Position numbers and translations under genes: made by a program. From Giardia intestinalis (taxonomy: Eukaryota): a DNA stretch of 64,000 nucleotides. Below, piece after piece: positions 10,552 through 49,796 of this stretch. Every line of letters begins with the position of its first letter. Position 1 is the stretch's first letter. The DNA lies in NCBI GenBank assembly GCA_000002435.2, contig CM018792.1; one strand, 5' to 3'. The notes beneath the pieces were generated by a model. That model ran no database searches and was not told the DNA's origin. It saw nothing but the letters and a program-made list of their open reading frames with translations.

Positions 10552-11240
10552 GAGTAGCACAGTTATAGCGTCTATCAGCTCATTTGCTTATTCCTTATAA
10601 TTTGACGTAGAAGTGATGGAAAGTACTAGGTTTACTTGTGACTAAATTCTCAATCACTTGCTCATACTAATTTTTTAATGTACACTTACAATCTTGGAGT
10701 ATCTGTAAATACATTATACTGGTTGAATGCCTATGTAGCTAAATTCATAAAAGCTGTCATACGTTGCGCAGTCATCGTACCATATGGTGAACCGTGAGCA
10801 AACGTTTGTGTACTTTTATGTTAAAATAAGTATATCAGCTCTGCTAATATCTCTCACACGATGGTTGTATCAGCACAACACTACTTCATAATAGGCTGAC
10901 TTGGGAGTTCCTCGCTTGAAAAATCTTAGGCCTAGATCCCGTTTGCATAGGTCTACTCCACACCGGCACCACAAGGATACAATGTGTGTAAATGTGTTAA
11001 CACCTGAGACTCATGGCCGAAGGACATCATGCATAGATCAAAATGCAACTGGTCATCACTATCAAAAAGCCAAAATAGCGGTGACACCTTTCAGCATACA
11101 CAGATGCCAAGTTCTCCGAGAAGTAATCCACCAAAGGTATTGCTGTCGATAATTCGCTAAATTGTTTCTAAGAAATTAGTTACCTAAATAGGAGCTAGAA
11201 AACATAGTGTAGCCACAAAACTATAAAGAGCTGATACATG

Positions 11241-19072: not shown

Positions 19073-19505
19073 TTTTGCTTTTACCTTGCTTTGCTGATTG
19101 TTTCTAATTGTGGCAAGGTTGGTTCTTTGGTCCTCTGACTGCAGTGTGTAGCAACATCGCTCCTGAGCTGACTTTTGTATGGACAAAGCCTGTGTGAAGA
19201 ACGACGGAGAGCACCTCAGGCAACAGGGGCCTGCTCATTTGCAGCTCACCAGATGCTTGGCTCCAAATATGATTGAACTCCCTTTTAGAGAAAGATCTTA
19301 GTGTGCTCAGTATGCTTTCGACGCCATGAAAAACATATCTAGGGTGTCGTTCGTTTGCAGCGATGTTGTAAGATATAGATTTTAGCGAGATGCTGAGCTG
19401 CTGCAAAGAGGGTATAGAACAGGCACAGATATCTAATTTCCAATCCAAAATTGGCTTTTACTTCGGTTTTTACTAATTTCGTTATCAAGAGCTGCCACAT
19501 ACCAA

Positions 19506-22838: not shown

Positions 22839-23343
22839 TTGTTCAGTGCTTACAGTACTCACGTACTTAGAGAGTTAATTTTAAGGTGGAATTTACAACA
22901 ATAGAAGCCGGCGTATCTTCGCAAGTTTTAAATTAATTGAGAAACCTGTTGATGAAAGTAGTCGATGGATTGAACAGATTGGCCCGTAGTCAGCACACAT
23001 GCGCACACCTGATCCTTTAACACAAAGATGTAGTTACACAGTCTATTAAGATTGACAACACTAGATTGTAGAAGCCCGGCAAATTATATCACTCACAATG
23101 ATTATAACGGAGGAGCTGGTCTATGGTGTGCAGGCTCTATCAGTACCAACACCGTTCAAACTCATAAGCATTGTACAGTTGTTCGCATAGCATGCATCTA
23201 GCTGTAGGTTCTCCGCAAAATGTCATTTGTGGGCTCACACGGCGGTCCAAGTGACAACCAAAATAAAAATCGTCGCTTTGGAGGTTCACTCCATTCTGCA
23301 GTGCAAGGTTGCTTTTTCTCCGGTTTACTTACTCTGTGTTGGA

Positions 23344-39841: not shown

Positions 39842-40711
39842 TCAAAGCTGTGCTATCAGGGCTCGCGCCTCGTGGCAGTATCCGCCTCCAAACATCAGTG
39901 CATGATTGAGCATGTGAAAGAGATTGTAAATAGGGACTTTTCTCTTAAACTCTGGACTGATGGGGAGAACGCTGCCGTAGTCTCGTAGAAAGTTGGAATC
40001 GAAGCCTCCAAAGAGCTGAGTCATTGCTAGATCCACCTCATTATCTCCATAGTAACACGCTGGATCGTATATGCAGGGCACCCCGCCGGATGAACCTGCG
40101 TTTCCTCCCCACAGATCGCCGTGTAACAGCATCGGCACAACAGATGATGCGAGAGTCAGCAACTGATCACGTACACGCTCCACTGCACCTTGTCTTGTAA
40201 CTCCCTTGGGGAGGACTTTACCAAGAGCCCCAGCGCTTTCGAGCTTGAGGAGAACGTCATTGATCCTGTGCTCTGCAAACCACTCTGGCCAGCCTTGGCT
40301 TGTCTGAGCGTTATCTAACTCCGTTGACCCACAGAAAGTCCTGCACGGAAAGCCAAACTTCTCTGCTACCGAGCCTTTATGCATGGCAGCAAGATGTCTT
40401 CCGAGACCAGATGTGTCTCCAGAGAGACCCTTGAGTTGCGTCATGAGAAGATATGACTTGCCATTAAAGGTACCCACTGAAATTGGGCGAGGACACAGTA
40501 CAGACCTTGTCTCCGAAATGGCCTTCAGCCCATGGTACTCTCCCCTGAATGCCAATTCAGCGTCAGGTCCACCAAGCTTAAGGAATAGAGGCTCCGGTGC
40601 ACGTATTGCATATGTTGATGAAAAGCAACTGCCGCTCATTTCACAAATAGAATCCGGCGTAATACCCTTGATTGATAAGCTATCCAGAAGATTGACCACA
40701 AGAGCGCTCAT
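39842..40711 (-). CDS. Fructosamine-3-kinase family protein (protein-ribulosamine/fructosamine kinase)
   Basis: ATG verified at 40711-40709. FN3K signature LLHGDLWGGN plus CIYDPACYYGDNEVDLAMT. Confidence 0.75.
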   Translation of the reverse strand: MSALVVNLLDSLSIKGITPDSICEMSGSCFSSTYAIRAPEPLFLKLGGPDAELAFRGEYHGLKAISETRSVLCPRPISVGTFNGKSYLLMTQLKGLSGDTSGLGRHLAAMHKGSVAEKFGFPCRTFCGSTELDNAQTSQGWPEWFAEHRINDVLLKLESAGALGKVLPKGVTRQGAVERVRDQLLTLASSVVPMLLHGDLWGGNAGSSGGVPCIYDPACYYGDNEVDLAMTQLFGGFDSNFLRDYGSVLPISPEFKRKVPIYNLFHMLNHALMFGGGYCHEARALIAQL

Positions 40712-41639
40712 GGACTCTTAAAATTAACATTACTTTAACGCAGAGACCTTTAATACAGAGACTCGAACAGCGTGATAAACTTTAATCTGTACAAGTGTGT
40801 AGGGTATGCAAAGCGTGTCCAGGTTTGAAAGTTGTATGGAATTGGAGCTTTCAAGTATGGGTCAGACTTTCATTTGAAGCCCGTCATGGAGCTGGTTCAT
40901 TGGAAAACAGCAACTGTGTGTGTCGTGGCCAATGCAATCATGAGCCTCTAGCTGACCCTCTTTATTCTCAATACAGCATTGAAGCGTGCTTATCTATGTT
41001 AGAGAGTTGAGCCTATGCAATATGAGTGAAAGCTGTCTTGCTTTTTCCACTAGGTGCAAAGCTGTGGCACGGTTTCACACCTGGGCATACATCCTTTGTC
41101 AATGATAAGTGGATTCAGGCCGCGCGTGTTATCGGCCCTGTCTTCAAACCCGATGACACGAATGACCTGGATGCGCAAAGCTCATACAGACGCGTGATTC
41201 TGCCATAAGAGTGGTGATCCAGAAAGGAGTTTCAGGAAGGTTATTAAGGATATCGACAAAGTTGGGCCTACTAATCTATAAGCCAGAAAACGGAGATCAG
41301 CCCATAAAGGTAAGCCACACTGCATTTCCACGTCAGTGCTCTGTGAGGACTAAGGGCTAAGTGGTGTGGATACTTTTGGCAATCCCTTTACAACGAAGCA
41401 CCAAGAGTACTGAATTTCTGGGCCCTTGGAATCTATCCTGTTGACTCTGATGCATTCTAAGGGTGATTATGGTTGTGCAAGGTCTGCTTTTGTATGGTTT
41501 GCTATAGGACAATTAGACCATAGAATACTATATGCTGGGATAAAGCCGCTTACTGAAAATGGATAGAGCGGTATCCATGGCGTTGCCCACGTCGGCGCCC
41601 TGTTGCGAACCCCTTCCATACGTGATGACTGGTCTCCGC

Positions 41640-41697
41640 AACACGGCCTAGGGAGCGCGCGTTGGCCCTCCCATGTGCCCGTTCCCTAGGCCGTGTT
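41640..41697. repeat. Perfect 15-bp inverted repeat (AACACGGCCTAGGGA / TCCCTAGGCCGTGTT) forming a 17-bp stem with a 24-nt GC-rich loop
   Basis: Read directly: the left arm at 41640-41654 and the right arm at 41683-41697 are exact reverse complements. The stem extends by G:U and C:G pairs. It lies in a 1.18-kb region with no convincing ORF. Confidence 0.6.
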
Positions 41698-41888
41698 ACG
41701 GATACTGGCAAGCCAAGATGTGCGTATCGCTCGAGGCCAGTCGTCGCATATGGGAGGGGCATGCGATGGGGGCTCTTGCGCTGGAGGCAGCTGGTCTGAC
41801 AGAGGTCCGGGTGGACAACGTCCTGAGTTCTGGAATTCATTTGATTGAAGCGATAACTTCTTTGTTAGTTAAAGAATTTACATAATTA

Positions 41889-42641
41889 TCAATCTGGCAA
41901 TGCGTCATTTCTGAACCAAAGAGAGCCATTACCAACAATTAGTGGGTGACTCAACAAGTGCTTAAAAGAAAATTCATCGGCTAGTAGAAGACCGGTGAAA
42001 TTCTGATAGTGAGATAAGTTGACTAGTGACAACGCTAAGCTGAATCTGTCTATGTGTGGTATTCCAGTGACAGGATCTGAAAACGCACTGTAGCTGGACT
42101 CGTTTTTCATGGAGCTGCTGATTCCGACGTACCAACTCTCGCCCTGAAGAATATCAATGAACGACGCTGCGTGACACGAGTCAACAAGAATGCAGAGGTA
42201 GGTAAAGCGACCTGCACCTTTCAGCGCATAGAGCACTCGCTCGAGGCTTTGCTTGTAGAGGATTGAAGAGTCTTGGAACCGAATGAACCCGGGAGACCCG
42301 TGACCAGCAAAGTACAAGACAAGAGTGTCTACCTGCGGAAGCGAAGCAGTATCCCACAGCTCCACAGATAAAAAGCGCAGGAATCTCTCTGGGCTGAGTT
42401 CATGCGGATGTATCACTTGATGGATAGCGTTCCTAAAATTAGAGTTCAATTGGAGCCAGCTGTGAGTAGGATCGTTGGCATACAGCAGGATGCTTTTATC
42501 GATCAAACCACTATTCATCAAAGTGCTATCAATTGTGGCTATGTCTACGTAGTGACGACTGTCCCAAAAAGCCCTAGATGTGTCCACACCGAGCAAGACA
42601 GTGGTGGCACTTATAAAATTACAAACCATAAACCATAGCAT
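41889..42641 (-). CDS. Minimal C13-family cysteine peptidase (legumain/GPI8-like) with an N-terminal signal peptide
   Basis: The track start at 42680 is TTG; the first ATG is at 42641-42639 (MLWFMVCNFISATTVLLG...). Catalytic His in YFAGHGSPGFIRF and Cys in ILVDSCHAASF. At ~250 aa it is much shorter than legumain or GPI8 (about 400-430 aa). Confidence 0.6.
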   Translation of the reverse strand: MLWFMVCNFISATTVLLGVDTSRAFWDSRHYVDIATIDSTLMNSGLIDKSILLYANDPTHSWLQLNSNFRNAIHQVIHPHELSPERFLRFLSVELWDTASLPQVDTLVLYFAGHGSPGFIRFQDSSILYKQSLERVLYALKGAGRFTYLCILVDSCHAASFIDILQGESWYVGISSSMKNESSYSAFSDPVTGIPHIDRFSLALSLVNLSHYQNFTGLLLADEFSFKHLLSHPLIVGNGSLWFRNDALPD

Positions 42642-42752: not shown

Positions 42753-45401
42753 CTACAAGAAAAAAGCGTAAAGCTTTCCGTCATGGGTGCCACCGATGAG
42801 TGCTCCTGTGCTGGAGGCGGCTAGCCAGCCAGTGGGAGAGCGGGCTCTGAAGATAGCGGAACTGTCAAAGACTATTCCTGACGTCCGAATGTCATATATT
42901 AGAATGCGTCCTTCATCTCCGGAAACGGCGAGACCGTTGCACTTGGGAAGAAACGCTACTCGTGGATTCGCTTTTACTGCCGATACTCCACTGAATAGTC
43001 GAATTGGTTGTTCAAGTGTCTGCCGCGCATCGTACAGCGCCACTTCTCCAGCTGTCATGCCAGAAGCACTAGTAGCAAAGATGTTCTCTGTCATGGACCC
43101 TAGGCAGGTATATGCCAGGTCAGGCAAGAAGACAGAAGGGGTCCTAGCATGCGGAGACACCTCGTTGCTTATTGTAGCCACCTTCTTCATGCGCGCAATG
43201 TCAACAACGCTCAAGGTATCAGATGGACCATTCTTATCCGATCTTGAATGAGTAAGGAAGCAAACTGGCGACTTGAAGCGAGTAAAGCAGGCACCCCCAT
43301 AAATCACTGATGGGAGACTCAAAACGGTCAGCTCAGTGTACGCCGGTTCCGTACAAGAAGCGCTGTCAGAGAAGCTTCCAGACACATCATATCTGTAGGC
43401 ATAAAGTGACGTATTTGCTGCAGCCAGGCACAGGCCCTCAGTGTCACATCGTGGCCAAATAAATGAGCACCATGCTGTCTCGTGGGGAGAGGCTTTACGA
43501 GGTTCGATTGAGAGGAGTTCCTTTCTGTTGCTCGCTATTGTTCGCCACACTCCTAGCGAGGCGTTTATGCCAGGAGTCAAAAGTAACTGGGAGCTCACAT
43601 GGGAGCTAAATGATGTTATGCGTGTAGAGGGAACGATGGACATCTTAAGCTTTAATGAGGGCCCCTTTTCTGTCGATGTTTTCGTGTATAGACTTATACA
43701 GTTGTCACTGGAGAGGTAAGCCAACGTCCCATCGTCCAAAGCCTCTGCATAAATAATCGGGCTGGATGTGGAAATGACCGCTAGCTGCTTCAGCCGCGAG
43801 TACCGCTTTAAAACCTCTTCCTCTTTGCCCAAGGAAGTAAGACTGGAAGTATTGTTTGGGAGCGATACCTGCTTTTGCTTGCTCAGTTTTTCCTGCTTGA
43901 GCTTCTGCTGCTCACTCCACGGAATAGAAGACGCATATCCAGATGACCTTACCTTATTCGTTGCTATTCGCCCTGTCCCTGCAGAAGCGGTTCTCTTTGC
44001 TTGCAATGAAGAAGCGACTTGTGATGACCTGGAAGGTACACTGGGCGCTCCCAGCTTGGTTCCACGCACAATCCGAGGATGCTGTGGGTTTAGAACTGAC
44101 GTGATGGGAAGAAACCATGTGTGCCCATCACAACTCTTCTGAAAGTCGTCAAATATAAGATCATACGCTTTCGGTTTTGGAGCATAGCCAATGGATAACC
44201 TTGTAAGAAGAGAGGCGTCGGTTGTATGAGCCCGAACTGCTACCATGCGGCTATGAAACAAATAAAGTTTTCGATTAGATGCCTCAATAATATAGAAATG
44301 GCTGCATCCATCCCTCCATTCAAAGACGGAAGACAAGACACTGTATGTACCCTTGCACTCCCTGGCAAGACACATTTCTAAACTCTCCGGGTCTTGATCA
44401 TCTCGTTCCGCTAAAGCAACGTTGCTGGGAGCGAGCGAGTTTGTCGGGACACCAAAGACCCCAACGTCTGTATCAACGAAAAGGGTTGTGGCAAGCATGA
44501 CATCGGGCTCCTCCAGAAGCTCATTTCTCGGCTGCACAGAGTCACGAGACTGGCCTAGACCGGCAGTAAAGATTTTGCTGGCCCCAAGGAAATACCCCAG
44601 CGGGATCTGCTGATCTGAAAACAGTTTGAGTGAGAGCTCAGGGCCGGCCTCACTCTGTGTAACTGAAAGGGTCTGCTTGTAAGGAATCACAGTGATATTT
44701 GTGTCGTTATATGCCACGATGTGTGTTTTGTCGTACCATAGTCCTGTTGGAATAAATGACAAGTGAAGTAAGGACTTGAACTCTCCCACAGCTATAGAAT
44801 TGTCTTCTTTAGAATAAGTAAATGTGAGGGTTGCAATGGACTGGTTTTTGCAGCCTAAGATTCCAGCGTATAACCGAGCACCCGACGACGAAACGGTTTG
44901 CTTCACTATTCCCACAGAGAAGAAATTGTCCTGGCGGTTGATGTAGGTGAACGAGGAAACATACACAAAGATGTCTTCAGAAATAGCGTAGATCAACACA
45001 TCATTGAGTAAAGTGCATATTAGGAAAGCTTCGTCATTGGAGACCGCCAGACACGTCCCAGACACAGGCCTTCCAGCAAGAGGGACCTGGGTTCTTTTCG
45101 TAAGTCTAGACTCGTGCTGCTGGGTCTCTCTAGCGCTTTGGAGAGACCAAGAAAAAAGACCCAGATCAAATCCGTTGTCTGAACGGTACACCACGGCGAG
45201 GAGGCAATTTAAAGTGGAAAGGATGCAGGCCTGTGGACTCTGGCAGCCCGCTCTAAACGTGAATGGTCGCGGGAGAGCCCGTATATGAACAGCTGCCTCG
45301 TGACCACCTACGACTGCACAGACATTTTCAGCAACACAGAAGGACGTGTACGCCTTGAGCGGAAGCTCTATCAGCTTCTCCGGGCTCTGTATAATCTGCA
45401 T
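42753..45401 (-). CDS. Large WD40/beta-propeller protein (~882 aa)
   Basis: The track start at 45455 is TTG; the first ATG is at 45401-45399 (MQIIQSPEKL...). Multiple WD-like strands (GGTHDGKLYAF, LAVSGDEGRILIYDIRT, and others). Confidence 0.6.
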   Translation of the reverse strand: MQIIQSPEKLIELPLKAYTSFCVAENVCAVVGGHEAAVHIRALPRPFTFRAGCQSPQACILSTLNCLLAVVYRSDNGFDLGLFSWSLQSARETQQHESRLTKRTQVPLAGRPVSGTCLAVSNDEAFLICTLLNDVLIYAISEDIFVYVSSFTYINRQDNFFSVGIVKQTVSSSGARLYAGILGCKNQSIATLTFTYSKEDNSIAVGEFKSLLHLSFIPTGLWYDKTHIVAYNDTNITVIPYKQTLSVTQSEAGPELSLKLFSDQQIPLGYFLGASKIFTAGLGQSRDSVQPRNELLEEPDVMLATTLFVDTDVGVFGVPTNSLAPSNVALAERDDQDPESLEMCLARECKGTYSVLSSVFEWRDGCSHFYIIEASNRKLYLFHSRMVAVRAHTTDASLLTRLSIGYAPKPKAYDLIFDDFQKSCDGHTWFLPITSVLNPQHPRIVRGTKLGAPSVPSRSSQVASSLQAKRTASAGTGRIATNKVRSSGYASSIPWSEQQKLKQEKLSKQKQVSLPNNTSSLTSLGKEEEVLKRYSRLKQLAVISTSSPIIYAEALDDGTLAYLSSDNCISLYTKTSTEKGPSLKLKMSIVPSTRITSFSSHVSSQLLLTPGINASLGVWRTIASNRKELLSIEPRKASPHETAWCSFIWPRCDTEGLCLAAANTSLYAYRYDVSGSFSDSASCTEPAYTELTVLSLPSVIYGGACFTRFKSPVCFLTHSRSDKNGPSDTLSVVDIARMKKVATISNEVSPHARTPSVFLPDLAYTCLGSMTENIFATSASGMTAGEVALYDARQTLEQPIRLFSGVSAVKANPRVAFLPKCNGLAVSGDEGRILIYDIRTSGIVFDSSAIFRARSPTGWLAASSTGALIGGTHDGKLYAFFL

Positions 45402-45984
45402 AATCCGTGCTGTTTTTACCTCAAAACTTAAAATCCTTTTGTTTCTAAGGTCCAAGACACCATTCTCATAATCATAAGTGCAGCGGAATTTGAAGTTCTA
45501 TAATAAGCCTGTAAGAAAATAAAACCCCAACGTTTAAAAATACAATCCGAACCTTTACGAACTTAGCTTCATAAGGTTCGTACATAAGAAGGGAGAAAAT
45601 TTGGGAAAAAAGAACAGTCAACCAATCAGTATAAACACAAGCTTAAACTCTGTGTCTGAGTATCTGTACAATGACGACTCTCCAGTCATCGCTGATGCAG
45701 ATTGGTGTGCACATCGAATCGTCAAAGTAGAGGGCCGTACGAGAACGTTCCTAGAGACCTTGGATGTTTATTCGCATTTGCAGAAAGTTGTTGATAGAAG
45801 AGTCAAAGCAAATATTGCTGGCATTGCTGTGCGGGGTGGGACCTGGGCTGATACTCGAAGAAATGCCTGGTTACTGGGGCCCAAGGCAAGGCTTGCTGCC
45901 CTCCGTGTTGAAGCCACAGACAAGCTTCTGGAAAGGGCAGAGTCCAGGGCATCGTCTAGAAGATGCTGCACATGCTTTCACAGA

Positions 45985-49409: not shown

Positions 49410-49796
49410 GAGTCGCCTGCTTCATCCGTGGTTGGCACCTCCACTGTCGCAATCGTACTGTTACAGTGAACTTATCCTGCCTCTTGCTAGGCTTTATGTG
49501 CAATGAGTTTCACCCATTAATTTCTGTCAATCTCGGTCTCAACGGCCTGACGCCTTTTGCATATCTTTTGTCACGGATTTACTAGTAGTGGAAAAGCATG
49601 TTCTATACCCTGCTAAACCGAGATGCCTCTGGTTCTAGAAATATCCAAAAGCTCAGAACCAGAAACCCAGTAAGGCTTGAGCGAACAGTTCAATTTCCAA
49701 TAGACGACAAAGAGGTATTTACATATAGGCCCATTGCTCAGACGCTTTACCTCGACACCCACACGAAGACAGAGAAAGGATACCAGACGCAAGCCC

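What the first reader, a model, noticed from the sequence alone, without database searches (positions are those of the whole stretch)
40712..41888. 1.18-kb gene-free stretch containing a perfect 15-bp inverted-repeat hairpin (41640-41697)
Almost everywhere else in this window intergenic spacers are 0-250 bp. Here about 1.2 kb lies between the fructosamine-kinase ATG and the 3' end of the C13 peptidase with only short, basic, ATG-poor ORFs. Inside it is a GC-rich segment (~41560-41830) holding an exact inverted repeat that would fold into a 17-bp stem with a 24-nt loop. That structure is far too stable to be incidental. Candidates are a structured ncRNA (snoRNA- or miRNA-like precursor, RNase P/MRP-type RNA), a regulatory element, or the relic of a decayed gene.
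Basis: seen in the sequence. Interest (0 to 1): 0.55.

Follow-up and report, generated by a model that had tools for sequence, protein, structure and literature searches.

The report
Dead hydrogenase gene plus palindromic scar
The 1.18-kb "empty" stretch in this Giardia intestinalis (assemblage A, WB-type) window is the wreck of a hydrogenase-like gene followed by lineage-specific junction DNA at a chromosome-rearrangement site; the striking hairpin is the core of an imperfect inverted duplication found only in this lineage, so it looks ordinary, not like a conserved RNA gene.

Summary
The gap 40712-41888 is the longest ORF-free stretch in the window, and it holds an exact 15-bp inverted repeat, the longest in 64 kb, inside a 62% GC tract.

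The gap has two parts.
- **40757-41357 (+)** is a decayed copy of a [FeFe]-hydrogenase-like gene. That gene is intact (451-462 aa) next to the fructosamine kinase in assemblage B (GL50581_641) and in two other Giardia lineages. Here it has lost its ATG and its Fe-S cysteine codons, has frameshifts and stops, and has lost about 785 bp internally.
- **About 41444-41835** is orphan DNA with no detectable counterpart beside the orthologous genes in assemblages E, B or a fourth lineage. In each of those, the flank of the C13 peptidase gene holds different DNA, with a VSP gene in E and B. This is a synteny break.

The hairpin is the core of a larger imperfect palindrome (41610-41759). One assemblage-A contig appears to lack 57 nt of it.

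No Rfam family, Giardia ncRNA 3' motif, intron motif or published Argonaute-bound miRNA matches. Expression could not be tested.

Most likely this is a pseudogene plus a rearrangement scar. A young Dicer-substrate hairpin remains possible.

The parts
40712..40756 (.). Short spacer between the kinase ATG and the former start of the hydrogenase-like gene. The two genes are divergently oriented, and the spacer is 44 bp in the intact assemblage B locus. It contains a 15-nt tandem direct repeat that begins at 40733 and runs 6 nt past this part, to 40762.
   Evidence: Homology to P15 and to the other lineages runs through this spacer.
40757..41190 (+). 5' part of the [FeFe]-hydrogenase-like pseudogene, corresponding to aa 1-148 of the intact protein. 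The ATG is lost, there are 7 indels (6 of them frameshifting), in-frame stops are present, and the 4Fe-4S cysteine codons are mutated.
   Evidence: tblastn against the intact proteins gives E 1e-16 to 2e-10. blastn shows 65% identity over 613 nt to L010 and L008. The colinear DNA alignment is A1.
41215..41357 (+). 3' end of the same pseudogene (aa ~410-457 and the stop). It is joined almost directly to the 5' part, so about 785 bp encoding most of the H-cluster domain have been deleted.
   Evidence: blastn matches 41215-41345 to L010 7122-7254 at 64.7%, E 5.5e-9. tblastn matches aa 432-456 at 52%, E 1.4e-5.
41364..41443 (.). Possible remnant of the 3' flank of the hydrogenase-like gene. It shows only weak, ungapped similarity of about 60% to the P15 locus.
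   Evidence: Smith-Waterman score 16 against shuffles of 11.7 +/- 1.3, maximum 15. Marginal.
41444..41835 (.). Orphan junction DNA with no detectable homologue next to the orthologous kinase, hydrogenase-like or C13 genes of assemblages E and B or of the L011/L012/L020-22 lineages. It lies between two blocks whose neighbours differ in every lineage, so it marks a synteny break.
   Evidence: No Pfam hit for any ORF. phmmer of the 70-aa ORF against 1.84 billion representatives gave only a fragment of itself and spurious repeat proteins.
41560..41835 (.). GC-rich tract (61.6% GC) within the orphan DNA.
41610..41759 (.). Extended imperfect palindrome (inverted duplication). The left arm is 41610-41660. 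The right arm is 41677-41705 plus 41738-41759, interrupted by a 32-nt insert (41706-41737). Together the arms match at 43 of 51 positions.
   Evidence: The outer arms match at 18 of 22 positions, all mismatches being transitions. Their score is 24 against shuffles of 15.4 +/- 2.3. The 291-nt fold gives -151.6 kcal/mol, z -7.2 on the + strand, and -132.8, z -6.0 on the - strand.
41632..41705 (.). Core hairpin: 29-nt arms at 86% complementarity, including the exact 15-bp arms 41640-41654 and 41683-41697.
41631..41687 (.). 57-nt segment (left core arm, loop and the first 11 nt of the right arm) that is absent from one assemblage-A contig. This is inferred from an 83-aa ORF product lacking exactly these 19 codons. 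There is 2-nt microhomology (CT) at the junction.
   Evidence: P0136 compared with the window translation. The DNA of that contig could not be fetched.
41673..41885 (+). Annotated 70-aa hypothetical ORF GL50803_22939, which starts inside the right arm of the hairpin. It is probably not a real gene.
   Evidence: Exact match to XP_001707707.1. No homologues were found. It is not conserved in P15 beyond the last ~50 nt, which belong to the C13 3' flank.
41836..41888 (-). Conserved 3' flank of the C13 peptidase / GPI-transamidase gene, probably its 3' UTR and polyadenylation region.
   Evidence: Homology to P15 runs to 41836 and to the L020-22 lineage to 41848.

Best explanation
The gap is a genomic scar, not a gene.

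**Shown.**
- The window is Giardia intestinalis assemblage A (WB-type).
- In other Giardia lineages a 451-462-aa protein with two 4Fe-4S domains and an Fe-hydrogenase large-subunit domain is encoded divergently next to the fructosamine kinase.
- In this lineage, and independently recognisable in assemblage E, that gene is dead. Here 40757-41357 retains only its two ends, riddled with frameshifts and stops.
- To the right of the relic, the neighbourhood differs in every lineage examined. Assemblages E and B carry VSP genes there. The roughly 390 bp between the relic and the conserved 3' flank of the C13 peptidase gene has no detectable counterpart in the other lineages' flanks of these genes.

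**Inferred.**
- The kinase block and the C13 block were joined by a rearrangement in the assemblage A lineage, and the orphan DNA is junction filler.
- The hairpin is the best-preserved core of an inverted duplication with arms of at least 51 nt. Fold-back or template-switch repair of a break could produce such a structure.
- As DNA it is a palindrome that is prone to deletion, which would account for the 57-nt deletion allele.
- It has no selected RNA function. Any transcript through it would fold simply because the DNA is palindromic.
For: **Organism.**
- The kinase is 85% identical to Giardia P15, 79% to the assemblage B cluster, and 45% to G. muris.
- The 70-aa ORF equals XP_001707707.1 of ATCC 50803.

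**Pseudogene.**
- Intact genes sit next to the kinase in L008/L010 (assemblage B; GL50581_641 next to GL50581_640), L011 and L012.
- Pfam finds Fe_hyd_lg_C at 9.5e-33 plus Fer4 domains. Solved [FeFe]-hydrogenases match at 1e-31.
- The window aligns colinearly with these genes but has a lost ATG, 7 indels (6 frameshifting), stops, and Cys codons changed.
- The 3' end of the gene resumes at 41215, which implies an internal deletion of about 785 bp.
- P15 keeps a different fragment, aa 86-170.

**Synteny break.**
- In P15 the kinase side leads to a VSP gene and a metallophosphatase. Its C13 side leads to a paralogous VSP (77% nt identity) and Rio2.
- Assemblage B has a VSP after C13.
- The DNA downstream of C13 is mutually non-homologous among the B, E and L020 lineages and the window.
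- The literature reports that VSP regions are GC-rich and associated with synteny breaks (PMC3091692).

**Inverted duplication.**
- Arm similarity extends beyond the stem, with a 32-nt indel.

**No sign of constraint.**
- A 1%-diverged assemblage-A contig (L003) has 12 SNPs in 1177 nt. One falls in the outer arm and none in the 74-nt core, which is not different from expectation.
- One contig's ORF product lacks 57 nt of the hairpin.
- Another contig (L006) ends at 41629, next to the hairpin.

**A parallel in assemblage B.**
- In about 137 kb of Giardia DNA examined, only two perfect inverted repeats have arms of 13 bp or more. One is this hairpin. The other is a non-homologous one in assemblage B's equally variable tract downstream of C13.
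- One of two B isolates carries an uncompensated stem mismatch in that repeat.

**Negative tests for RNA genes.**
Against: - No expression data could be consulted, so a transcribed and processed hairpin is not excluded.
- The core is perfect while the outer arms have diverged. This could reflect selection on the stem rather than gene conversion or a more recent event.
- The hairpin is present and unchanged in the one contig (L003) that is about 1% diverged. The four contigs that carry the region in full (L001, L002, L004, L005) are identical to the window across it.
- About 150 contigs carry the ORF form compatible with the hairpin, against one carrying the deletion form. The hairpin allele is therefore clearly the common one.
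- The deletion allele is known only from a predicted protein on one Logan contig, not from its DNA.
- The whole WB genome could not be searched, so neither the source of the duplicated unit nor the existence of other copies is known.
- The direction and mechanism of the rearrangement are inferred, not observed.
Confidence: 0.68

Rival explanations
1. A young, assemblage-A-specific hairpin RNA locus. Read-through or pervasive transcription yields a ~74-150-nt foldback that Giardia Dicer cuts into ~26-nt small RNAs (miRNA-like or endo-siRNA), possibly loaded on GlAgo.
For: - The hairpin has the size and stability of reported Giardia pre-miRNAs: a 29-bp imperfect stem at -55 kcal/mol.
- The + strand of the extended fold is more stable, with several mismatches becoming G-U pairs.
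- The published GlAgo study reports that 40% of its putative miRNAs come from unannotated regions, and that 41 of 105 are WB-specific (PMC3937270).
- In other eukaryotes, inverted duplication is a known route to new hairpin RNA genes (my own knowledge).
Against: - None of the sequences in Table S1 of that study contains the arm sequence. None of the 100 sequences in the part of the table that was read (of 105 putative miRNAs) occurs anywhere in the window.
- Nothing was found in the supplements of two extracellular-vesicle small-RNA papers.
- The wobble count gives no strand bias: 4 positions favour one strand and 2 the other.
- There is no conservation outside assemblage A, and a deletion allele apparently exists.
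- The arms show no similarity to any VSP or other gene in the loci held.
Confidence: 0.17
2. A non-autonomous foldback or MITE-like mobile element of about 150 bp, inserted into GC-rich junction DNA.
For: - The element-like unit 41610-41759 consists almost entirely of inverted arms.
- A 5-nt direct repeat, TGCGA, sits 1-2 nt outside each end, at 41604-41608 and 41762-41766 (read).
Against: - There is no second copy in the 64-kb window or in about 70 kb of other Giardia loci.
- To my knowledge, no DNA transposons or MITEs are described in Giardia.
- The deletion allele is not a precise excision.
- A 5-mer repeat at a loose offset is easily chance.
- The flanking DNA is equally GC-rich.
Confidence: 0.05
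3. A conserved structured ncRNA gene (snoRNA, snRNA, RNase P/MRP-type) or a structured intron.
For: Only the strong fold.
Against: - No Rfam family scores at gathering level anywhere in the window. The E<=10 scan of the gap returns only sub-threshold generic miRNA hairpin models at the hairpin, the stronger one on both strands.
- No tRNA is found.
- The 12-nt Giardia ncRNA 3' processing motif is absent from the gap.
- There is no Giardia intron 3' motif.
- No homologous sequence lies beside the orthologous genes in P15, assemblage B or the other lineages.
Confidence: 0.03
4. A real small protein gene (GL50803_22939, 70 aa), or a cis-regulatory element or terminator serving the C13 or kinase genes.
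For: - The ORF was annotated in the first WB genome release.
- The hairpin lies about 190 nt downstream of the C13 stop codon.
Against: - The ORF has no homologue in 1.84 billion representative proteins apart from a fragment of itself, and no Pfam domain.
- Its N-terminus is encoded by the hairpin arm and changes in the deletion allele.
- Homology to the P15, B and L020 C13 flanks stops 5-52 nt past the stop codon, so orthologous genes function without this element.
- The kinase promoter lies at the far end of the gap.
Confidence: 0.05

Closest known systems
Unitary pseudogene of a lineage-variable gene: GL50581_641 of G. intestinalis GS, a [FeFe]-hydrogenase-like protein
   Same: It has the same position and orientation next to the fructosamine kinase. 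Nucleotide homology is colinear over the first ~445 bp and the last ~135 bp.
   Different: The start codon is lost, there are frameshifts and stops, the Fe-S cysteines are lost, and ~785 bp encoding most of the catalytic domain are deleted. It is distinct from the canonical Giardia Fe-hydrogenase-1 (GL50803_6304), which is a separate gene present in all three reference isolates.
Synteny-break regions of Giardia genomes associated with VSP genes (Jerlstrom-Hultqvist et al. 2010, PMC3091692)
   Same: The tract is GC-rich and non-syntenic. It has VSP genes at the corresponding place in assemblages E and B, hypothetical ORFs, and different content in every lineage.
   Different: No VSP gene, and no relic of the VSP extended poly(A) signal, remains in this window. 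Only ~390 bp of orphan DNA is left.
Inverted-duplication (palindromic) scars of break repair, and deletion-prone DNA palindromes
   Same: There are two arms of at least 51 nt in inverted orientation separated by a short spacer. The structure lies at a rearrangement junction, is restricted to one lineage, and has an apparent deletion allele with 2-nt junction microhomology.
   Different: The generating event was not observed. A 32-nt insert interrupts one arm, and a third partial copy of the arm's outer motif lies in the loop (41663-41678, pair I2). The history is therefore more complex than a single fold-back.
Giardia miRNA precursors (Saraiya et al., PMC2583053, PMC3937270)
   Same: It is a hairpin of ~75 nt in an 'unannotated / hypothetical ORF' region, and it is WB-lineage-specific like many reported candidates.
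   Different: No matching ~26-nt Argonaute-associated RNA appears in the published list. Dicer dependence and expression are untested.

Membership tests
Pseudogene of the [FeFe]-hydrogenase-like gene (orthologue of GL50581_641) | Colinear homology to an intact gene at the syntenic position | tested here: met
   Intact genes lie next to the kinase in L008/L010, L011 and L012. The window aligns at 62-65% nt identity over 478-621 nt, and tblastn gives E down to 1e-16.
Pseudogene of the [FeFe]-hydrogenase-like gene (orthologue of GL50581_641) | Disabling mutations (lost start, frameshifts, stops, deletion of essential domain) | tested here: met
   ATG changed to AGA or GTG, 7 indels (6 frameshifting), in-frame stops, Cys codons of both 4Fe-4S motifs changed, and ~785 bp deleted internally.
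Rfam families (RNase P, RNase MRP, snoRNA, snRNA, miRNA, others) | Covariance-model score at or above the family's gathering threshold | tested here: not met
   0 hits in the whole window at gathering level. The best sub-threshold hit is mir-3155, at 27.9 bits (- strand) and 26.2 bits (+ strand) against 70 required.
Giardia sno/snRNA-type ncRNA genes (Hudson et al. 2012, PMC3510501) | 12-nt 3'-end processing motif (CCTTYNHTHAA / HCMTTYHHTHAA) downstream of the RNA | tested here: not met
   No match lies between 40712 and 41888 on either strand. Matches across the whole window are at chance level.
Giardia sno/snRNA-type ncRNA genes (Hudson et al. 2012, PMC3510501) | Sequence conservation at the corresponding locus in WB, P15 and GS | tested here: not met
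   No similarity of 41444-41835 to the P15 or assemblage B flanks of the same genes. Other genomic locations could not be searched.
Giardia miRNA precursor | Hairpin of roughly 60-100 nt able to serve as a Dicer substrate | tested here: met
   A 74-nt hairpin with a 29-bp imperfect stem and MFE of -55 kcal/mol on either strand.
Giardia miRNA precursor | A ~26-nt Argonaute-associated small RNA mapping to an arm | tested here: not met
   The arm sequence is absent from Table S1 (105 putative miRNAs) of PMC3937270. None of the 100 sequences read from that table occurs in the window. This covers one published list only; raw small-RNA data are not testable here.
Giardia miRNA precursor | Dicer-dependent biogenesis and target repression | not testable with these tools
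   Requires experiments or read-level data.
Inverted-duplication scar at a rearrangement junction | Arm similarity extends beyond the thermodynamic stem, as for duplicated DNA | tested here: met
   Outer arms 41610-41631 and 41738-41759 match at 18 of 22 positions. The score is 24 against shuffles of 15.4 +/- 2.3; the maximum of 300 shuffles was also 24.
Inverted-duplication scar at a rearrangement junction | Location at a lineage-specific break of synteny | tested here: met
   The neighbours of the kinase/hydrogenase block and of the C13 block differ in the P15, B, L011 and G. muris loci. The C13-downstream DNA is non-homologous among the window, P15, B and the L020 lineage, with no comparison made for G. 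muris.
Inverted-duplication scar at a rearrangement junction | Structural instability (indel polymorphism at the palindrome) | tested here: inconclusive
   An 83-aa ORF product on one Logan contig lacks exactly 19 codons, corresponding to 41631-41687. The DNA was not retrievable, and only one contig shows it.
MITE / foldback transposon | Multiple dispersed copies with target-site duplications | tested here: inconclusive
   No other copy was found in the window or in the other Giardia loci held. The full genome is not searchable here. TGCGA repeats near both ends may be chance.
Protein-coding gene GL50803_22939 | Homologues or conservation of the reading frame in related lineages | tested here: not met
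   phmmer against 1.84 billion representatives finds only a fragment of itself and spurious repeat proteins. There is no Pfam domain, and no P15 or B counterpart.

The most novel reading that the evidence does not exclude
The palindrome is a newborn hairpin-RNA gene, specific to assemblage A. It would have been created by inverted duplication at a rearrangement junction, be processed by Giardia's minimal Dicer into ~26-nt RNAs, and still be segregating as a presence/absence polymorphism among isolates. That would be a natural experiment in de novo small-RNA gene birth in a deep-branching eukaryote.
Probability: 0.12. Interest if true: 0.55.

Novelty: new member of a known kind. Interest (0 to 1): 0.2.

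Why it matters
Mostly this is a clean-up of annotation. The longest 'empty' stretch in the window is explained by an unannotated pseudogene and a rearrangement scar. The hypothetical ORF GL50803_22939 is probably spurious.

Two points have modest wider interest:
- Giardia lineages differ in having a second, divergent [FeFe]-hydrogenase-like gene. It is intact in assemblage B and two other lineages, dead in A and E, and mis-named in some assemblage B records. This could bear on differences in anaerobic metabolism between assemblages.
- In the ~137 kb examined, the two strongest perfect inverted repeats both lie in the hypervariable tract next to the same gene, in two different assemblages. That fits a link between palindromes and genome instability at synteny breaks.

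Tried and rejected
- **Rfam.** The gathering scan of the whole window and the E<=10 scan of the gap found nothing beyond generic hairpin models.
- **tRNA / tmRNA.** None found.
- **Bacterial promoter and terminator scan.** At chance level and irrelevant for a eukaryote.
- **Giardia ncRNA 3' motif, VSP extended poly(A) signal, intron 3' motif.** None is present in the gap.
- **Homology of the orphan segment to other Giardia loci.** Tested against the flanks of the orthologous genes in P15, assemblage B, the L011/L012/L020-22 lineages and G. muris, using blastn (word size 7), tblastx and Smith-Waterman with shuffles. Nothing was found except a marginal 80-nt stretch at 41364-41443.
- **Missing middle of the hydrogenase gene present but inverted in the orphan segment.** No significant minus-frame hits.
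- **Protein relics.** Pfam on 8 ORFs gave none. phmmer of the 70-aa ORF against 1.84 billion representatives gave only a fragment of itself and spurious repeat proteins.
- **Metagenome scan for the 15-mer arm.** 113 single chance matches, none with both arms and none extending beyond 28 nt.
- **Literature.** The arm sequence and 'GL50803_22939' were not found in full text, nor in the supplements of three small-RNA papers and one transcriptome paper.
- **More diverged assemblage-A-like contigs.** Contigs carrying the kinase variants P0001 and P0006 reach only ~230 nt upstream of the kinase. The look-up cap then prevented fetching the contigs of P0136, P0138 and P0139.
- **Strand preference from G-U wobbles between the arms.** 4 against 2, uninformative.
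Full report
**Organism and setting**

The flanking genes identify the window as Giardia intestinalis of the assemblage A (WB) type.
- The fructosamine-3-kinase (39842-40711, -) is 85% identical to that of isolate P15 (assemblage E). It is 79% identical to the cluster holding the GS/assemblage B protein, and 45% identical to G. muris.
- The C13 peptidase (41889-42629, -) is the putative GPI-anchor transamidase, 100% identical to a G. duodenalis entry.
- A 70-aa ORF inside the gap is identical to XP_001707707.1, 'Hypothetical protein GL50803_22939' of ATCC 50803.

**Checking the observation**

- The arms 41640-41654 and 41683-41697 are exact complements. They extend to 29-nt arms at 86% complementarity.
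- It is the longest perfect inverted repeat with a loop of 100 nt or less in the window; the runner-up has 10-bp arms. Only 1 of 100 Markov-simulated windows reached 15 bp.
- The 101-nt fold has z-scores of -6.3 (+ strand) and -5.8 (- strand).
- The tract 41560-41840 is 61.6% GC, against 47.3% for the window.
- The 1177-bp gap is the largest ORF-free interval. The next largest is 689 bp, and the median is 86.5 bp.

**The left half is a dead gene**

Contigs from other Giardia lineages that carry the orthologous kinase show an intact gene immediately next to it, transcribed divergently. It is 457 aa in L008/L010, 457 aa in L011 and 451 aa in L012.
- The L008/L010 lineage is assemblage B. The protein clusters with EET02101.1 (GL50581_641, 'hypothetical protein'), whose accession neighbours the GS kinase EET02100.1.
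- The protein has two 4Fe-4S ferredoxin motifs and an Fe-hydrogenase large-subunit domain (Pfam PF02906, 9.5e-33). It matches solved [FeFe]-hydrogenases at 1e-31.
- It is not the canonical Giardia Fe-hydrogenase-1 (GL50803_6304), which all three reference isolates share.

The window aligns colinearly with these genes from 40757 to about 41190 (aa 1-148). In this stretch:
- both possible ATGs are lost;
- there are seven indels of 1, 2, 1, 1, 7, 13 and 1 nt;
- there are in-frame stops;
- the cysteine codons of the Fe-S motifs are replaced.

Homology resumes at 41215-41357 with the last ~45 codons and the stop. About 785 bp encoding most of the catalytic domain have therefore been deleted. P15 retains a different fragment, aa 86-170 at L007 5844-5593. 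The gene is thus also dead in assemblage E.

**The right half is lineage-specific junction DNA**

Homology with the 3' flank of the C13 gene ends at different points in different lineages:
- 41836 in P15;
- 41848 in the L020-22 lineage;
- 41884 in assemblage B.

Between the relic and that point, blastn, tblastx and Smith-Waterman comparisons with shuffled controls find nothing in the corresponding flanks of any other lineage. The one exception is a marginal 80-nt stretch at 41364-41443 against P15.

The neighbourhoods themselves differ.
- In P15 the kinase side continues into a VSP gene and a metallophosphatase.
- In P15 the C13 side continues into a paralogous VSP (77% nt identity) and Rio2.
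- Assemblage B has a VSP after C13.
- L011 has an unrelated gene after the hydrogenase gene.
- G. muris has other neighbours and carries the two genes on different contigs.
- The DNA downstream of C13 is mutually non-homologous among the B, E and L020 lineages.

This matches published descriptions of GC-rich, VSP-associated synteny breaks in Giardia (PMC3091692). I infer that the adjacency of the kinase and C13 blocks is a rearrangement of the assemblage A lineage, and that 41444-41835 is junction DNA. No VSP poly(A) signal relic survives.

**The hairpin is the core of an inverted duplication**

Folding 41550-41840 revealed a much longer helix: -151.6 kcal/mol, z -7.2 on the + strand, and -132.8, z -6.0 on the - strand.

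Direct comparison shows that sequence similarity between the arms continues outward.
- 41610-41631 matches the reverse complement of 41738-41759 at 18 of 22 positions.
- All four mismatches are transitions.
- The score of 24 equals the maximum reached in 300 shuffles, which averaged 15.4 +/- 2.3.
- A 32-nt insert (41706-41737) interrupts the right arm.
- A third partial copy of the outer motif lies in the loop (pair I2).

This is the pattern expected of duplicated DNA that has since diverged. It is not what a minimal RNA stem kept by selection would look like. The mismatches give G-U pairs 4 times on one strand and 2 times on the other, so they do not identify a functional strand.

**Variation within assemblage A**

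Four Logan contigs (L001, L002, L004, L005) are identical to the window over the whole gap. A fifth (L006) is identical as far as it reaches, ending at 41629 right beside the hairpin.

One contig (L003) differs at 12 of 1177 positions. One of these lies in the outer arm (41750) and none in the 74-nt core. At 1% divergence this says nothing about constraint.

The more informative result comes from the protein cluster of the annotated ORF. It contains an 83-aa variant (P0136, one contig of 3660 nt) that reads MALPTSAPCCEPLPYVMT|RPCYGYW.... The window, in the same frame, reads ...YVMTGLRNTA*GARVGPPMCPFPRPCYGYW.... The variant therefore lacks exactly 19 codons, 41631-41687. That span covers the left core arm, the loop and 11 nt of the right arm. 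The junction has 2-nt microhomology (CT).

The 55-aa form, expected when the hairpin's stop codon is present, occurs on about 150 contigs. The hairpin allele is therefore the common one, and the deletion is rare and probably derived.

**Tests of RNA-gene hypotheses**

- No Rfam family reaches threshold anywhere in the window. The only hits at the hairpin are miRNA hairpin models far below threshold, the stronger one (mir-3155) on both strands.
- The 12-nt 3' processing motif that marks Giardia sno/snRNA genes (PMC3510501) is absent from the gap.
- The Giardia intron 3' motif is absent.
- No sequence in Table S1 (105 Argonaute-associated putative miRNAs) of PMC3937270 contains the arm sequence. 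None of the 100 sequences read from that table occurs in the window.
- The supplements of two extracellular-vesicle small-RNA studies and one transcriptome study do not contain the arm sequence or the ORF number.
- A scan of the metagenome collection for the 15-mer returned only single chance matches.
- The annotated 70-aa ORF has no homologue apart from a fragment of itself, and no domain.

**A parallel in assemblage B**

One is this hairpin. The other is an unrelated 13-bp repeat at L016 7598-7632, in assemblage B's own GC-rich variable tract downstream of the same C13 gene. One of the two B isolates carries an uncompensated mismatch in its stem. This suggests that palindromes accumulate in, or contribute to, these unstable junctions without being conserved.

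**Verdict**

- 'Relic of a decayed gene' is right for the left half.
- The hairpin is best explained as the core of an inverted-duplication scar in lineage-specific junction DNA (confidence about 0.68).
- The main rival is a young Dicer-substrate hairpin (about 0.17). It cannot be excluded without small-RNA read data.
- A mobile foldback element, a conserved ncRNA, and a real small protein or cis-element are each unlikely.

Interest is low (0.2). This is an ordinary kind of feature, usefully explained, with a minor side finding about a lineage-variable second hydrogenase-like gene.

Noticed in passing
L010 5896-7269; L008 3-962; L011 1541-2914; L012 2611-3966: Assemblage B and two other Giardia lineages carry an intact second, divergent [FeFe]-hydrogenase-like gene (2x 4Fe-4S domains plus Fe_hyd_lg_C). 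It is only ~27-30% identical to its best non-Giardia matches. In GS it is 'hypothetical protein GL50581_641'. In two other assemblage B records (ESU41340.1, KWX12496.1) the same protein is named 'SSU ribosomal protein S7E', apparently a mis-annotation. The motifs VPCTSKKDE and FCPGGCKNGGGQ are kept, but the first H-cluster motif reads SARCP rather than the canonical TSCCP (the canonical motif is from my own knowledge).
   Followed up: partly
L007 2158-4569 and L013 7512-9923: P15 has two paralogous 803-aa VSP genes (77% nt identity over 2.3 kb). One is next to the hydrogenase relic and kinase, the other next to the C13 peptidase gene. They sit on different contigs with different outer neighbours.
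   Followed up: partly
L016 7598-7632 (also L017): A perfect 13-bp inverted repeat with a 9-nt loop (TCCAGAAGCGCCA / TGGCGCTTCTGGA) lies in assemblage B's GC-rich 1.36-kb tract between the C13 gene and a VSP gene. It is not homologous to the window's hairpin. L017 has one uncompensated stem mismatch.
   Followed up: partly
L007 7965-8036 and L012 547-618: A 12-nt perfect inverted repeat with a 48-nt spacer (CAGAGCCACACA / CAGAACCACACA) lies at the same place inside the eIF2-gamma coding sequence of two diverged lineages. In the window the corresponding repeat is shorter than 11 bp.
   Followed up: no
window 41629 (end of contig L006): One Logan contig (SRR3596231) stops 2-3 nt before the hairpin. 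This would fit an assembly-graph branch caused by hairpin-present and hairpin-absent alleles in one sample, or simply a coverage drop at a stable hairpin.
   Followed up: no
window 41764-41805 vs 42794-42835: A weak direct similarity (32 of 42 nt, E 0.008 in a search limited to the window) links the GC-rich tract to the 3' end of the 900-aa gene 1 kb away. It may be chance, or a trace of local template copying.
   Followed up: no
window 40733-40762: A tandem 15-nt direct repeat (CTTTAACGCAGAGAC / CTTTAATACAGAGAC) lies in the short divergent spacer between the kinase ATG and the former start of the hydrogenase-like gene.
   Followed up: no
window 10552-11240, 45402-45984, 22839-23343, 19073-19505, 49410-49796: Other ORF-free intervals of 387-689 bp exist in the window, so spacers above 250 bp are not unique to the reported gap. 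None has an Rfam hit at gathering level.
   Followed up: no
ENA contigs encoding P0138 / P0139 (not fetched): The 60-aa ORF inside the pseudogene relic (41026-41208) has variants with 6 of 60 residue differences on ENA contigs. An assemblage-A-like lineage several percent diverged therefore exists in public data, and it could show how the hairpin evolves.
   Followed up: no
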